Positions 199 through 1,550 of a stretch of DNA of 64,000 nucleotides are shown here, one piece after another (the stretch's first letter is position 1; the number at the start of each line of letters is the position of its first letter). Below the pieces are notes generated by a model, which saw only the letters and a program-made list of their open reading frames with translations, ran no database searches and was not told where the DNA came from. Origin of the DNA: a virus (Duplodnaviria > Heunggongvirae > Uroviricota > Caudoviricetes); the IMG/VR virus record IMGVR_UViG_2778261540_000003; one strand, 5' to 3'. A program made the position numbers and the translations under genes.

Positions 199-664
199 CA
201 GGGTTTTCGTCATGGTTAGCGACTTTGCGGCGGTTTAGAAACTGACCATTAAAGTAAATGCAAACGATGATCTGATGATGGTAGCGGCCTAAGAAACCAG
301 ATGCCACGGGGTATGAGTCGTCCCCCGTCAAAAAAATCGACCGCAGAGTGTCCCCGTCTGTGTATTAGGGAACGGGGAGGCACAACAGGTAAGGGCGCTG
401 GTGTGATTAACCAGATGAACGAGAAGGGGCCATCTGTTGGTCAGCGTCCTTTCCTGTTGCGTTTTCTTTTCAGCGTAACAGCGGTGCTTAACAGCACTTT
501 GGGTACAGTTCCACGAATTTACGGGTATATCCCGTCATGCTGAAGGCGCTAATCACGCTGGAAGCCAGGGTTGTGCATCCCCTGTTACCGAATTGCAGCC
601 AGGGCGCGGTGCGCCGAAAAGCATACGGAGGTGGAAGCCCTCGCCGGAGACGTACCCGGCAAGT

Positions 665-740
665 GATGGTGTAGCTCAGCGGTTAGAGCGGTTGACTGTT
701 AATCAACGGGTCGATGGTTCAAATCCATCCACCATCGCCA
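665..740 (+). tRNA. tRNA-Asn (anticodon GTT)
   Basis: 76-nt cloverleaf: 7-bp acceptor stem gatggtg/caccatc, D arm gctc..gagc, anticodon loop ctGTTaa, T arm gatgg-ttcaaat-ccatc, encoded CCA. Confidence 0.9.
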
Positions 741-742
741 AT

Positions 743-818
743 GCCGGTTTAGCTCAGTTGGTAGAGCGCCTGCCTTGTAAGCAGGATGTCAGCGGTTCGA
801 GTCCGTTAATCGGCACCA
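743..818 (+). tRNA. tRNA-Thr (anticodon TGT)
   Basis: 76-nt cloverleaf 3 nt after tRNA-Asn: acceptor gccggtt, anticodon loop ctTGTaa, T loop ttcgagt, encoded CCA. Confidence 0.9.
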
Positions 819-826
819 GCACAACA

Positions 827-900
827 GGTAAGGGTATTTTGCGACGTCGGAGATCGCCGAGCTTGGCAGAGGGTTCGAATCCCTACGAAGTACCCTTACC
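827..900. repeat. Structured element A: 10-bp perfect inverted repeat (ggtaagggta / tacccttacc) enclosing a canonical T-arm-like motif agggTTCGAATccct
   Basis: read directly; begins with shared motif ACAGGTAAG and is followed by CCGTTGTGATGAAGTGC; not a canonical cloverleaf. Confidence 0.5.
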
Positions 901-1051
901 GTTGTGATGAAGTGCAGCTCTTTGAAGCAACCAGAAGATAAGCATCTGGCTTCACAACATAAACCGCAGGAACGACCAATAAACGGTAGTCCGTATGGAG
1001 AACACCCCGTTGAGGAAGAGGCCTGGCCGGAACCGTAACCGGCACTACAAC

Positions 1052-1133
1052 GTTGAGAACACTGGCGTAACGGGGTCATATCCCAATCTACGAATAAATG
1101 TTGCGTTGCAGCGTGACAACCAGTGTTCTCAAC
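1052..1133. repeat. Structured element B: 14-bp perfect inverted repeat (gttgagaacactgg / ccagtgttctcaac) enclosing cggggTCATATCCCAATCTAC core
   Basis: read directly; followed by ATTGTGGTGAATGC, paralogous to the tail of elements A and C. Confidence 0.5.
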
Positions 1134-1331
1134 ATTGTGGTGAATGCACAGGCTGATGTGCCGCAACTACAGTAGTGCGCGCTTTGCGGGGCTTGCTACA
1201 ACCCTGTGTCGGAGTTCAGCACCGACCATCACAGTTTGATTCTCTGGCATGAGCATAACGCTGAAATAAGTCCAGCCTGGTGCGGCCCGATCACCCGCCG
1301 TTAGCTCCACGAAACGGAGCACGTAACAGGT

Positions 1332-1391
1332 AAGAGCATTCTCCTGTAACGGGTTCATATCCCAATCTACAGGTCCACCAAGAATGCTCTT
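1332..1391. repeat. Structured element C: 11-bp perfect inverted repeat (aagagcattct / agaatgctctt) enclosing cgggtTCATATCCCAATCTAC core
   Basis: read directly; preceded by ACAGGTAAG and followed by CCGTTGCGGTGAATGC. Confidence 0.5.
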
Positions 1392-1550
1392 TCCGTTGCG
1401 GTGAATGCGGCTAAGCGCACGCGGGGAAATGGTTATATCAGTCCATTCATTTCTCCTTGTTTCCCCGTCCACGGTGGATAACCAGCCAAAGGACACCGGG
1501 AGGCACCCGGCACCGCAGCTTTTTTATTCGTTAAATAATGGAGTGAGAGG

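What the first reader, a model, noticed from the sequence alone, without database searches (positions are those of the whole stretch)
385..1416. Family of tRNA-like structured repeats flanking the tRNA-Asn/tRNA-Thr genes
Immediately downstream of tRNA-Thr and twice more within 600 bp there are elements with perfect 10-14 bp inverted repeats (827-836/891-900, 1052-1065/1120-1133, 1332-1342/1381-1391). Each encloses a T-arm-like core (agggTTCGAATccct or GGKTCATATCCCAATCTAC). They share flanking motifs: ACAGGTAAG on the 5-prime side (also at about 387) and CCGTTGYGRTGAAKGC on the 3-prime side. None folds as a canonical cloverleaf. They could be processed small RNAs, tRNA-derived pseudogenes, RNase P or RNase E processing signals for a polycistronic tRNA-ban transcript, or recombination scars. 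The ORFs predicted across them are almost certainly artefacts.
Basis: seen in the sequence. Interest (0 to 1): 0.55.

Follow-up and report, generated by a model that had tools for sequence, protein, structure and literature searches.

The report
Constant-stem, variable-loop phage RNA hairpins
The repeats around the phage P1 tRNA genes are real RNA hairpins from a widespread family that no searched database or paper describes; phage lambda has one too, each copy keeps the same roughly 20-base-pair stem around a completely different 29-52-base interior, they sit where tRNA and tRNA-like small-RNA units join, and their function is still unknown.

Summary
The window is a P1-type phage, and position 1 lies in the C1-controlled ban promoter. 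Besides the three hairpins reported, a fourth lies at 380-464. ACAGGTAAG and CCGTTG pair with each other as the base of each stem. The following GTGAA(T)GC opens the next RNA module.

A pattern scan and a covariance model found the same frame in more than 120 viral contigs and in prophages across Enterobacterales. Its consensus is CAC-AAC-A-GG-U-AAGAGCAUUG ... CAGUGCUCUU-U-CC-GUU-GUG. One copy is in phage lambda (44,792-44,861), just after the tR' terminator. The stem is kept by compensatory and wobble changes that fit only the transcribed strand. The enclosed 29-52 nt fall into 39 unrelated classes, and one class shows a covarying cloverleaf-like fold with a T-loop arm.

The hairpins start 4 nt after a tRNA or 6-11 nt after a terminator. 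They end exactly where a tRNA or tRNA-like module begins. Homology breakpoints between phages fall on their arms.

Best reading, which is inferred: they are excised small structured RNAs or processing hairpins in polycistronic tRNA/sRNA leaders, probably cut by RNase III. They are not canonical tRNAs, not BoxA and not attC. The plp/upl ORFs across them are probably artefacts.

The parts
106..198 (+). Context: the first RNA unit of the ban operon, a dicF-like region that ends in an intrinsic terminator at 172-198.
   Evidence: The reference P1 annotation marks a 'dicF-like region' at NC_005856 68791-68892, which maps to window 106-207. The terminator scan finds the terminator. The layout mirrors lambda: pR', then 6S RNA, then tR', then a frame hairpin.
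380..464 (+). Arms are at 383-400/442-459, with a 41-nt interior.
   Evidence: the repeat finder pair I2. The fold is -44.8 kcal/mol with z -5.25. Model R1 scores it 27.7 bits, E = 1.2e-5.
665..818 (+). tRNA-Asn(GTT) at 665-740 and tRNA-Thr(TGT) at 743-818. These are real tRNAs.
   Evidence: ARAGORN. Rfam tRNA scores of 74.5 and 72.9 bits.
819..912 (+). Frame hairpin E1. Its conserved lower-stem motif AACAGG begins 4 nt after the CCA of tRNA-Thr (the extended arm, pairing through the GCAC linker, abuts the tRNA at 819). Arms are at 819-839/888-906. The interior carries a canonical T-arm, AGGGUUCGAAUCCCU, at 868-882.
   Evidence: R1 scores it 52.9 bits, E = 3.5e-13. Fold z is -4.53. The same element is in P1, RCS47, D6 and many viral contigs.
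901..958 (+). Module S1. It is closed by GUUGUGAUGAAG (901-912) pairing with CUUCACAAC (950-958). It contains the arm CCAGA-AGAUAAGCA-UCUGG (931-949). It shares GUUG with the 3' arm of E1.
   Evidence: Read directly from the sequence. The general rule was tested. A Klebsiella phage-plasmid matches window 893-958 at 95.5% identity (H38/H39).
1043..1142 (+). Hairpin E2, a diverged paralogue of the frame. Arms of 23 nt at 1043-1065/1120-1142 are 91% complementary. The interior shares GTAACGGGKTCATATCCCAATCTAC with E3.
   Evidence: the repeat finder I1 and D2. The fold is -49.2 kcal/mol with z -5.97. R1 recognises only its 3' junction UUGUGGUGAAU.
1135..1234 (+). Module S2. It is closed by UUGUGGUG (1135-1142) pairing with CAUCACA(G) (1227-1234). 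It has a D-arm-like hairpin GCAC-AGGCUGAU-GUGC and the arm GUCGG-AGUUCAGCA-CCGAC.
   Evidence: Sequence. The global fold of 815-1535 has z -6.35. Homology breakpoints fall at 1233.
1304..1320 (+). Small hairpin GCUCC-ACGAAAC-GGAGC immediately upstream of E3. The same hairpin precedes frame hairpins in many unrelated prophages.
   Evidence: The 5' flanks listed.
1321..1406 (+). Frame hairpin E3. Arms are at 1321-1342/1381-1400, with a 40-nt interior.
   Evidence: R1 scores it 54.7 bits, E = 9.8e-14. Fold z is -4.57. The Ro157c2 relative has a 13-nt deletion inside the interior while the stem stays intact.
1395..1526 (+). Module S3, an STnc100-like RNA. It is closed by GUUGCGGUG (1395-1403) pairing with CACCGCAGC (1511-1519), followed by a U-run. 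The variable protein cassette starts directly after it.
   Evidence: Sub-threshold Rfam STnc100 hit at 1397-1517, 37.8 bits against a gathering score of 47. The junction with the tciABC versus SPFH cassette is seen. tciABC is a known hypervariable region of P1-like phage-plasmids (PMC9603915).

Best explanation
**Shown.** The elements are RNA structures on the sense strand of the ban operon leader. They belong to a large family of tRNA-sized hairpins (75-96 nt) with three properties.
- They share a nearly constant lower stem of 18-20 bp: CAC-AAC-[bulged A]-GG-[U.U]-AAGAGCAUUG pairing with CAGUGCUCUU-CC-GUU-GUG.
- They enclose an interior of 29-52 nt that differs completely between copies. In at least one class the interior is itself a conserved multi-arm fold with a T-loop hairpin.
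- They occupy the seams of polycistronic non-coding arrays. They start 4 nt after a tRNA CCA end or 6-11 nt after a terminator. They end exactly at the first nucleotide of a tRNA or of a tRNA-like, STnc100-type module. The closing helix of that module reuses the GUUG of the hairpin's 3' arm.

**Inferred mechanism.** After derepression of Pban in P1, or Q-dependent read-through of tR' in lambda, one long transcript carries tRNAs, tRNA-like small RNAs and these hairpins. I propose these steps:
1. The long, slightly imperfect stem is cut as double-stranded RNA, most likely by host RNase III.
2. One staggered cut frees the 3' side of the upstream tRNA or terminator unit.
3. The same cut frees the 5' side of the downstream unit, whose closing helix can then form with the released GUUG, and RNase P can then act on the tRNAs.
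4. The cut also releases the upper stem plus variable head as a small stable RNA.

The constant stem is then the shared processing and stability handle, and the variable head is the part with a specific, still unknown role. Because the stem arms are repeated, they also act as joints where recombination swaps modules. The breakpoint pattern is observed; that exchange at the joints is the cause is inferred.
For: **Family and structure.**
- The pattern scan of viral contigs gave at least 120 loci and 82 distinct copies. One copy is lambda 44,792-44,861, just after tR'.
- True copies occur in Serratia, Klebsiella, Pectobacterium, Pantoea, Rahnella, Kluyvera, Citrobacter, Erwinia, Enterobacter and Escherichia. 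The 86 chance matches in other phyla pair at only 0-5 of 7 inner positions, which serves as a natural negative control.
- 98.5% of stem cells are paired (the copies were pre-selected for at least 6 of 7 inner pairs, which inflates this figure). Eight pairs show double changes in 66 cells, reached by 0 of 500 shuffles. Versions with partners slid by 1-3 columns pair at 38-64%.

**Strand.**
- There are 93 G.U pairs against 20 A.C on the + strand.
- The three outer pairs, which were outside the search pattern and the pairing filter, are 94-100% paired (about 98% overall). With one exception, the paired variants change only on the 5' side as C-to-U or A-to-G.
- Sense copies score about 25 bits above antisense.
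- 0 of 148 copies have an opposite-strand tRNA within 1.5 kb.

**Seam position.**
- 25 copies lie within 10 nt after a tRNA.
- 4 copies have a tRNA (Arg-UCU three times, Gly-CCC once) starting in the last 1-2 nt of CCGUUG.
- Terminator-type 5' flanks are listed.

**Shared GUUG.** 57% of junction 9-mers have a Watson-Crick complement of at least 8 of 9 located 54-214 nt downstream, against 4-5% in controls. The pairs covary: GAUG/CAUC, GCUG/CAGC, GGUG/CACC, GCGGUG/CACCGC.

**Interiors.**
- 39 unrelated classes among 89 distinct copies.
- T-loop hairpins in 14 of 89 against 0.24 in shuffles.
- Lengths of 29-52 nt, median 44.
- One class folds as a four-way junction with 10 compensated pairs among 7 sequences.

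**Single transcript.** No sigma-70-like promoter is found in window 1-2700, against 2.6 expected.

**RNase III compatibility.** The enzyme accommodates about 22 bp of duplex, and cleavage sites near tRNAs have been mapped in vivo (PMC6212723).

**Recombination joints.** 19 of 30 distinct homology end points fall within the arms plus or minus 5 nt, which cover 29% of the region (P = 9e-5). The RCS47 insertion is bounded by a repeated CTTACCGTTGTGATGAA.
Against: - No cleavage, transcript-end or abundance data were available, so RNase III, and any excision at all, is inference.
- RNase III has weak sequence specificity. It does not by itself explain why the stem sequence is nearly identical in P1 and lambda.
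- Diverged copies (E2, the P7 element, the Qin copy) lack the bulged A and the U.U mismatch, so these features may not be essential.
- Most interiors are only weakly structured (mean z -0.5). Only one class shows covariation, and the commonest class shows none. Many interiors could therefore be spacers.
- A hairpin paired right up to position -1 should hinder RNase P on the downstream tRNA.
- CRISPRi knock-down of P1 trnT, plp, upl and ban, and of lambda orf64, gave no plaque defect, so any function is dispensable in the laboratory (PMC10695390).
- Phages 933W and phi80 lack the element.
Confidence: 0.42

Rival explanations
1. Folding guide or switch. The hairpin is a leader that temporarily holds the first nucleotides (GUUG-UG) of the downstream tRNA-like module. 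The outcome depends on whether GUUG pairs with the upstream CAAC or the downstream CAAC. Either the downstream RNA matures, or its closing helix forms and (as at 1395-1526) acts as a terminator. This would tune read-through to ban or the late genes, or the timing of small-RNA maturation. No excision of the hairpin is required.
For: Both mutually exclusive helices appear to be under selection. The outer hairpin pairs are 94-100% paired through wobble changes. The downstream closing helix covaries and is present at 57% of junctions against 4-5% in controls. With the 5' arm removed, the lambda sequence folds into the 9-bp GUUGUGCUG/CAGCACAAC helix. In P1 the closing helix of the last module is followed by a U-run just before the protein-coding part of the operon.
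Against: Most downstream modules have no U-run, so termination control cannot be general. No ligand or factor that could flip a switch is evident. The overlap is only 4-6 nt, so both helices can largely coexist and stack. This model explains neither the variable interior nor its length constraint.
Confidence: 0.17
2. Trans-acting small RNAs on a common scaffold. The constant stem only stabilises and presents the roughly 44-nt variable head. The head acts by base pairing or as a decoy or sponge on host or rival-phage RNAs or proteins. T-loop-bearing heads could mimic the tRNA elbow. Diversity would reflect an arms race.
For: There are 39 unrelated interiors within one frame, with a constrained length. 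T-loop hairpins are enriched. One class has a covarying structured head. The neighbourhood is the known small-RNA and 'moron' site downstream of pR', where Hfq-bound anti-sRNAs with conserved and variable parts reside (PMC4104026). The adjacent STnc100/PasD-type modules are established Hfq-binding sRNAs (bioRxiv 10.64898/2026.05.13.724894).
Against: No complementary target longer than 11 nt was found in the 64-kb window. Host targets could not be searched. The elements have no terminator or Hfq module of their own. There is no evidence that the RNA accumulates. There is no plaque phenotype on knock-down.
Confidence: 0.2
3. Primarily DNA-level recombination joints. The conserved inverted arms persist because they promote exchange of tRNA, small-RNA and moron cassettes between phages, and the RNA structure is incidental. 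One version of this reading treats them as integron-attC-like or MITE-like sites.
For: Homology breakpoints cluster on the arms. The RCS47 insertion lies between repeated arm sequence. The variable protein cassette begins at a module end. The architecture superficially resembles attC: AAC/GTT ends, an extrahelical base and a variable centre.
Against: Compensatory and strand-specific wobble changes show selection on pairing of the transcribed strand. Double-stranded recombination sites do not require this. Orientation is always co-directional with transcription. The ends do not fit RYYYAAC/GTTRRRY. No integron integrase or transposase is known in P1 or lambda (not scanned for here), and no target-site duplication was seen. 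MITE copies share their interiors, and these do not.
Confidence: 0.08
4. BoxA-type antitermination. The 3' arm UGCUCUUU recruits NusB/NusE, so that RNA polymerase resists Rho on these long untranslated leaders, as in rRNA operons and CRISPR arrays.
For: GCUCUUU, within the commonest 3'-arm sequence UGCUCUUUCC, is identical to the first 7 positions of the BoxA consensus GYTCTTTAANA (PMC5725501). 11 of 89 copies read GCUCUUA, which I recall, from memory only, as the lambda nut form of BoxA. The leaders are long and untranslated, with no promoter across 2.7 kb, so protection from Rho would be useful.
Against: Positions 8, 9 and 11 of the consensus are not met (CCGU instead of AANA). The sequence is base-paired in a covarying stem, whereas, from general knowledge, BoxA is thought to act unpaired. 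The 3' arm is barely more conserved than its complement, with 38 against 47 substitutions. The window copies E0, E1 and E2 deviate within the core.
Confidence: 0.05
5. Decayed tRNA genes (pseudogenes), or protein-coding sequence on the minus strand (plp/upl).
For: A canonical T-arm lies in the 819-912 element. The elements are tRNA-sized. P7 and D6 carry an 87-nt tRNA-Ser-like gene in the same region. plp and upl are annotated in the reference record, and a PHROG family exists for the 1167-1496 ORF.
Against: There is no cloverleaf by ARAGORN or Rfam, even at E up to 10. A constant stem under purifying and compensatory selection with 39 unrelated interiors is not decay. The ORFs overlap tRNA-Thr, have no Pfam match, are broken by a 13-nt deletion and by module swaps in relatives, and interior lengths show no multiple-of-three pattern. 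The PHROG families merely collect the same annotated ORFs.
Confidence: 0.04

Closest known systems
RNase III processing hairpins between units of a polycistronic transcript (phage T7 early-region sites R0.3-R1.3; the stems flanking 16S and 23S rRNA)
   Same: Long, slightly imperfect stems of about 20 bp placed exactly between functional RNA units in one transcript. They are repeated several times per operon, with related sequence between copies. Spacer tRNAs lie next to them in rRNA operons.
   Different: Cleavage is not demonstrated here. The loops are large (29-52 nt), unrelated between copies and sometimes structured. The stem sequence is shared across unrelated phage groups. The 3' strand is also claimed by the closing helix of the next module.
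STnc100 / PasD prophage Hfq-binding sRNAs (Rfam RF02076; Zhu, Shabalina and Storz preprint 10.64898/2026.05.13.724894)
   Same: The module that follows each hairpin starts with the same UGGUGAAU plus small hairpin. Like the STnc100 model, it is closed by pairing of its two ends. The window copy at 1397-1517 scores 37.8 bits. The genomic habitat, lambdoid prophage late leaders, is the same.
   Different: The hairpins themselves are not part of the Rfam model. The window hit is below the gathering score of 47. Most downstream modules in other loci do not reach threshold.
tRNA
   Same: Similar size. Co-transcribed and interleaved with real tRNAs. A long end-to-end closing stem. Some interiors carry a canonical T-loop hairpin, and one class forms a four-way junction.
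   Different: The closing stem is 18-20 bp rather than 7 bp. There is no D-arm, anticodon-arm or T-arm order and no CCA. Neither ARAGORN nor the Rfam tRNA model detects them.
Integron attC sites
   Same: An imperfect hairpin with conserved ...AAC / GTT... ends, an extrahelical base, a mismatch and a hypervariable central part. They sit at cassette boundaries.
   Different: The core sequences do not fit RYYYAAC/GTTRRRY. Wobble pairs favour the transcribed (top) strand. No integron integrase is known in these phages. The units between sites are RNA modules rather than ORF cassettes.
BoxA of rRNA operons and lambda nut sites
   Same: The 3' arm contains UGCUCUUU. The context is a long untranslated transcript.
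   Different: The AANA part of the consensus is missing, and the sequence is sequestered in a conserved helix.

Membership tests
tRNA (canonical) | A cloverleaf detectable by tRNA gene finders or a covariance model | tested here: not met
   ARAGORN finds only Asn, Thr and Met(cat). Rfam tRNA hits are the same three, even at E up to 10 over window 1-3000. ARAGORN over 126 loci never called a frame hairpin.
tRNA (canonical) | A T-arm: a 5-bp stem with a UUCRANY loop | tested here: inconclusive
   Present in the 819-912 element and in 14 of 89 family members, against 0.24 expected. Absent from most. In the 1043-1142 and 1321-1406 elements the loop is UCAUAUC or UUCAUAU on a 3-bp stem.
Any described RNA family (Rfam 15) | A match to a curated covariance model | tested here: not met
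   No family covers the hairpins in the window or in the lambda late leader at E up to 1. Only spurious microRNA-precursor matches appear, far below threshold.
RNase III processing hairpin | An intramolecular duplex of about two helical turns (about 20-22 bp), tolerating small bulges | tested here: met
   Stems have 18 modelled pairs plus upper extensions. The enzyme's valley fits about 22 bp (PMC6212723).
RNase III processing hairpin | A staggered double cleavage that depends on rnc | not testable with these tools
   No RNA-end data were available, and the supplement of the RNase III mapping paper is not held.
BoxA (Nus factor site) | A match to the consensus GYTCTTTAANA | tested here: not met
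   GCTCTTTCCGT matches the first 7 positions only (consensus from PMC5725501).
BoxA (Nus factor site) | Accessible, unpaired RNA (that BoxA acts single-stranded is from general knowledge, not from a source read here) | tested here: not met
   The sequence forms the 3' strand of a helix with 98.5% pairing and compensatory changes.
Integron attC | R''/R' cores RYYYAAC and GTTRRRY | tested here: not met
   The ends are (G/A)CACAAC and GTTGTG(G/A), with one and two positions off respectively.
Integron attC | An associated integron integrase, with the bottom strand as the folded substrate | not tested
   Wobble asymmetry favours the top, transcribed strand, which was tested and argues against membership. 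No dedicated search for an integrase was made. From general knowledge, none is known in P1 or lambda.
MITE / terminal-inverted-repeat element | A shared interior among copies and target-site duplications | tested here: not met
   39 unrelated interiors. The flanks are inverted rather than direct repeats.
STnc100 (for window 1397-1517 only) | A score at or above the Rfam gathering threshold | tested here: not met
   37.8 bits against 47, E = 5e-6, covering model positions 31-147 of 206. It is a related but sub-threshold member.
Hairpin-type RNase P substrates (4.5S RNA, P1/P7 C4, P4 CI, phi80 M3) | A 3' RCCA-like tail after the stem | tested here: not met
   The stem is followed by UGGUGAAU. 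The phi80 late leader has no frame hairpin. The M3 paper is not held.

The most novel reading that the evidence does not exclude
Temperate phages of Enterobacterales, including the textbook phages lambda and P1, carry a modular and recombinationally shuffled library of lytic-phase small RNAs. Each is built on one constant double-stranded handle with a swappable head of about 44 nt. They are interleaved with tRNAs and tRNA-derived sRNAs. The heads would be specificity determinants, such as decoys, sponges or tRNA-elbow mimics, used in host take-over or in counter-defence against tRNA- or RNA-targeting immunity. The handle would be a shared signal for excision and stabilisation.
Probability: 0.25. 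Interest if true: 0.85.

Novelty: new variant of a known kind. Interest (0 to 1): 0.6.

Why it matters
- Lambda and P1 are among the best-studied genomes in biology. Even so, this conserved RNA structure in lambda's late leader and P1's ban leader matches no Rfam family, and its sequence appears in none of the papers searched.
- The elements mark the exact seams of the 'moron' region. In pathogenic E. coli that region carries tRNAs, Hfq-binding sRNAs and toxin genes.
- If the stems are processing handles, they explain how tRNAs and small RNAs are released from antiterminated phage transcripts, and how new RNA modules are plugged in.
- If the variable heads are active, this is a new class of phage small RNA with a natural scaffold that could be reused in RNA engineering.
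- On the practical side, the plp/upl-type ORFs annotated over these elements in P1-like records should be treated with suspicion.

Tried and rejected
1. **Known RNA families.** Rfam at gathering and permissive thresholds on the window and on lambda gave nothing for the hairpins. A scan of 20 related loci at gathering threshold returned only tRNAs, isrJ (a tR'-type short RNA) and int-alpA nearby.
2. **Cryptic tRNAs.** Rejected by ARAGORN and Rfam.
3. **phi80 M3 RNA, the classic non-tRNA RNase P substrate, as the same thing.** The phi80 late leader has no frame and the 1976 paper is not held, so this was dropped.
4. **Existing E. coli K-12 data.** DLP12 lacks the element. Qin has only a diverged copy at 25.8 bits. 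The RNase III mapping supplement is not held.
5. **Stx phage 933W late leader.** No copy.
6. **BoxA.** 7 of 10 consensus positions match, the sequence is paired, and the 3' arm is not clearly more conserved than the 5' arm.
7. **attC and MITE readings.** Rejected on core sequence, strand asymmetry and unrelated interiors.
8. **Antisense targets of the interiors within the 64-kb window.** Nothing longer than 11 nt.
9. **General structuredness of the interiors.** Weak, mean z -0.5. The commonest interior class shows no covariation because its copies are too similar.
10. **First test of the downstream closing helix.** Allowing G.U pairs was uninformative, because controls were also high. It was repeated with Watson-Crick pairs only.
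11. **Literature.** Sequence-string searches, P1 transcriptome searches and the P1 genome paper (not held) yielded no description of the element.
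Full report
**Where we are.** The first 3 kb of the window are 100% identical to a P1 isolate (MH422554) and about 99% identical to reference P1 wherever the two are homologous. Mapping to the annotated reference puts window position 1 inside the C1 operator and promoter of the ban operon. A 'dicF-like region' follows at about 106-207, then tRNA-Asn and tRNA-Thr. On the opposite strand the reference annotates the ORFs plp and upl, then tciABC, a third tRNA and ban. 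In this variant tciABC is replaced by a 78-aa membrane ORF and an SPFH lipoprotein. No sigma-70-like promoter is found in window 1-2700, against 2.6 expected by chance. A strong terminator sits at 172-198. The finding therefore lies in a long, mostly untranslated leader read on the + strand.

**Checking the observation.** A fourth hairpin lies at 380-464.
- All four fold far better than shuffled sequence as + strand RNA, with z from -4.5 to -6.0. They fold less well as the minus strand.
- AACAGGTAAG occurs three times in 64 kb against 0.14 expected.
- The region 815-1535 as a whole has z -6.35, with each hairpin forming independently.
CAAC-A-GG pairs with CC-GUUG, leaving a bulged A.
- The sequence after the stem, UG-GUGAAU plus a 4-bp hairpin, begins the next module.

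**It is a large family.** Relatives already showed other versions of the same frame with different interiors. P7 and RCS47 carry a copy with a 29-nt interior. RCS47 carries both versions in tandem. Ro157c2 has a 13-nt deletion inside one interior with the stem intact. P7 and D6 have a frame enclosing a 70-nt interior.

One of them is phage lambda itself at 44,792-44,861, immediately after the 6S RNA terminator tR' and in the sense of the late transcript.

A scan of one genome per species gave 36 copies with a paired inner stem. These come from Serratia, Klebsiella, Pectobacterium, Pantoea, Rahnella, Kluyvera, Citrobacter, Erwinia, Enterobacter and Escherichia, plus exact lambda contamination in unrelated assemblies. 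It also gave 86 chance matches in other phyla, whose inner positions pair at only 0-5 of 7. That is a convenient negative control.

A frame-only covariance model (interiors replaced by GAAA) was built from 84 distinct frames, among them the P1-type copies identical to E1 and E3; E0 and E2 were left out as tests. It scores E3 at 54.7 bits, E1 at 52.9 and the 380-464 copy at 27.7. It finds nothing else in the window. In 100 other loci it finds about 110 sense-strand copies, usually one per lambdoid prophage and three or four per P1-like genome, mostly 75-96 nt long. Rfam has no family for it. The stem sequence occurs in no searchable paper.

**RNA, and which strand.**
- Across the 84 frames, 98.5% of stem cells are paired. 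This figure is inflated, because the copies were pre-selected for at least 6 of 7 inner pairs.
- Eight pairs show changes on both sides (66 cells). None of 500 shuffles reaches this, and slid partners pair at 38-64%.
- The three outermost pairs were in neither the search pattern nor the filter. They are 94-100% paired (about 98% overall), and with one exception the paired variants change only on the 5' side, C to U or A to G. These changes are wobble-neutral only on the + strand.
- Overall there are 93 G.U pairs against 20 A.C.
- Sense copies outscore antisense by about 25 bits.
- None of 148 copies has an opposite-strand tRNA within 1.5 kb.

This rules out a purely double-stranded DNA site and fits transcription with the tRNAs.

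**Position.**
- Twenty-five copies, all of the P1 type, lie just after a same-strand tRNA: the conserved AACAGG motif begins 4 nt after the CCA of tRNA-Thr, and the extended stem pairs through that 4-nt linker.
- In P7 the same 4-nt rule holds after the tRNA-Ser-like gene.
- Many lambdoid copies begin 6-11 nt after a terminator U-run.
- At the 3' end, four copies have a real tRNA (Arg-UCU, Gly-CCC) starting within the last 1-2 nt of CCGUUG. Others are followed by degenerate tRNA-like sequences.
- 64 of 81 are followed by UG-GUGA, UG-AUGA, UG-GUGU, UG-CUGA or CG-GUGA, the start of the STnc100-type module.

That module is closed by a helix that reuses the hairpin's GUUG. In 57% of junctions, the 9-mer made of GUUG plus the next 5 nt has a Watson-Crick complement of at least 8 of 9 located 54-214 nt downstream. 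Shuffles give 4% and the upstream region gives 5%. The covariation is clear: GAUG/CAUC, GCUG/CAGC, GGUG/CACC, GCGGUG/CACCGC. In the window this defines modules at 901-958, 1135-1234 and 1395-1526. The last gives a sub-threshold STnc100 hit and ends in a U-run. STnc100 and PasD are established prophage Hfq-binding sRNAs.

The hairpins are therefore the spacers of an alternating chain: unit, hairpin, unit. Each GUUG has two possible CAAC partners.

**The interiors.**
- Among 89 distinct copies there are 39 classes that share no 10-mer.
- Lengths are constrained to 29-52 nt, median 44, with no multiple-of-three pattern.
- On average they are only weakly structured, with mean z -0.5.
- T-loop hairpins occur in 14 of 89 against 0.24 in shuffles.
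- One class folds as a four-way junction: the long stem, a 6-bp arm with a UUCGACU loop, a 7-bp arm and a 3-bp arm. Ten pairs are compensated among seven sequences.
- The commonest class is too uniform to test.
- The P1 copies at 1043-1142 and 1321-1406 share a 25-nt interior motif.
- No antisense target of the P1 interiors exists in the window.
- The interior of the large P7 element is the same sequence that, in lambda, forms the module downstream of lambda's hairpin. The same cargo can therefore be enclosed by either kind of closing helix.

**Recombination.** Homology between this window and other P1-like loci breaks at module borders. Nineteen of 30 distinct end points lie within 5 nt of a hairpin arm, and these zones cover 29% of the region (P = 9e-5). 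The extra module pair in RCS47 sits between two copies of CTTACCGTTGTGATGAA. The swap between tciABC and the SPFH cassette starts right after the closing strand at 1517. tciABC is one of eight hypervariable regions of P1-like phage-plasmids (PMC9603915). The region downstream of pR' is the recognised 'moron' and small-RNA site of lambdoid prophages (PMC4104026).

**What it most likely does.** Three things are shown: an RNA-level, sense-strand hairpin family with a constant stem; a seam position; and an end shared with the next module. The function is inferred.

I favour excision and processing. A stem of about 20 bp placed exactly between stable RNA units is what RNase III uses in T7 early RNA and in rRNA operons. 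The stem length fits the enzyme, and RNase III sites near tRNAs are known in vivo (PMC6212723). A single staggered cut would define the neighbouring ends, free GUUG for the downstream closing helix, remove a leader structure that would otherwise hinder RNase P, and release a stem-capped small RNA.

The main weakness is that no cleavage or abundance data exist here. A second weakness is that RNase III alone does not explain the near-identity of the stem sequence in P1 and lambda. Frequent exchange at the arms, or an unidentified stem-binding factor, may contribute.

Close rivals are a folding-switch or attenuator role based on the two competing helices, and a trans-acting role for the variable heads. 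BoxA, attC, MITE, tRNA-pseudogene and minus-strand ORF readings each fail a tested defining feature (see the membership table). CRISPRi knock-downs across this P1 region, and of lambda orf64, give no plaque defect, so the function is accessory under laboratory conditions (PMC10695390).

**Verdict.** This is a widespread structured-RNA family that I found described nowhere, present even in lambda, with an unusual design of constant stem and unrelated interior, and with a clear experimental route to its function.

Noticed in passing
window 106-198: The ban operon opens with a dicF-like small RNA region that ends in a strong intrinsic terminator right after the promoter. This is the same promoter, short RNA, terminator, frame-hairpin layout as lambda pR'-6S-tR'. 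P1 has no known Q-type antiterminator, so how transcription reaches ban is unclear.
   Followed up: partly
window 1397-1517: A sub-threshold match to the prophage Hfq-binding sRNA family STnc100 (37.8 bits, gathering score 47). It closes with GUUGCGGUG/CACCGCAGC and a U-run.
   Followed up: partly
window 931-949 and 1208-1226; L002 about 2510-2528: The modules between hairpins share a 5-bp arm with a conserved 9-nt loop, AGNUNAGCA, placed directly against the closing strand, as a T-arm is in a tRNA. Their 5' part (7 nt, AAU, then a 4-bp stem with an 8-nt loop) resembles an acceptor strand plus D-arm. These sRNA modules may be tRNA-derived.
   Followed up: partly
window 1304-1320: The hairpin GCUCC-ACGAAAC-GGAGC immediately precedes frame hairpins in at least 12 otherwise unrelated prophage loci.
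   Followed up: no
L006 (P7) 1767-1853 and L004 (D6) 2607-2693: An 87-nt tRNA-Ser(UGA)-like gene that is absent from this window. The D6 record notes that tRNAscan-SE does not assign its amino acid. It is followed 4 nt later by a frame hairpin with a 70-nt interior, and that interior equals the lambda module at NC_001416 about 44,862-44,930.
   Followed up: partly
L130 9030-9225, minus strand (E. coli K-12 MG1655 about 1,641,030-1,641,224, Qin prophage, between cspB and essQ): A diverged hairpin-plus-module unit (25.8 bits) with its own terminator. A strong Shine-Dalgarno sequence and an 11-codon mini-ORF (MKQWLAYLAKS) overlie the 5' arm. No RNA gene is annotated there.
   Followed up: partly
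Genome-contig loci L136, L138, L154, L159, L165, L185, L187, L198, L201, L210, L213, L219, L238, L240, L245: The exact lambda late-leader sequence occurs on short or low-coverage contigs of unrelated taxa (Pseudomonas, Psychrobacter, Bradyrhizobium, Shewanella, Enterococcus and others). This is most simply explained by lambda DNA contamination of those assemblies.
   Followed up: no
window 1517-2600: This P1 variant carries a 78-aa membrane ORF (1551-1787, PHROG 'moron' membrane protein) and an SPFH-domain lipoprotein (1768-2595) in place of tciABC. The SPFH gene is about 86% identical to genes in Stx-converting phages. The swap begins exactly at the end of the last RNA module.
   Followed up: partly
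L005 (phage Ro157c2YLVW) 1244-1330: An extra tRNA-Tyr(GTA) is inserted between tRNA-Asn and tRNA-Thr in this P1 relative. This shows gain and loss of tRNA units in the same array.
   Followed up: no
L104 3848-3912 and L038 264-330: Some frame hairpins lie within a few hundred bases of the Rfam 'int-alpA' RNA motif. The family therefore also occurs in P4-like or other integrative elements, not only in late leaders.
   Followed up: no
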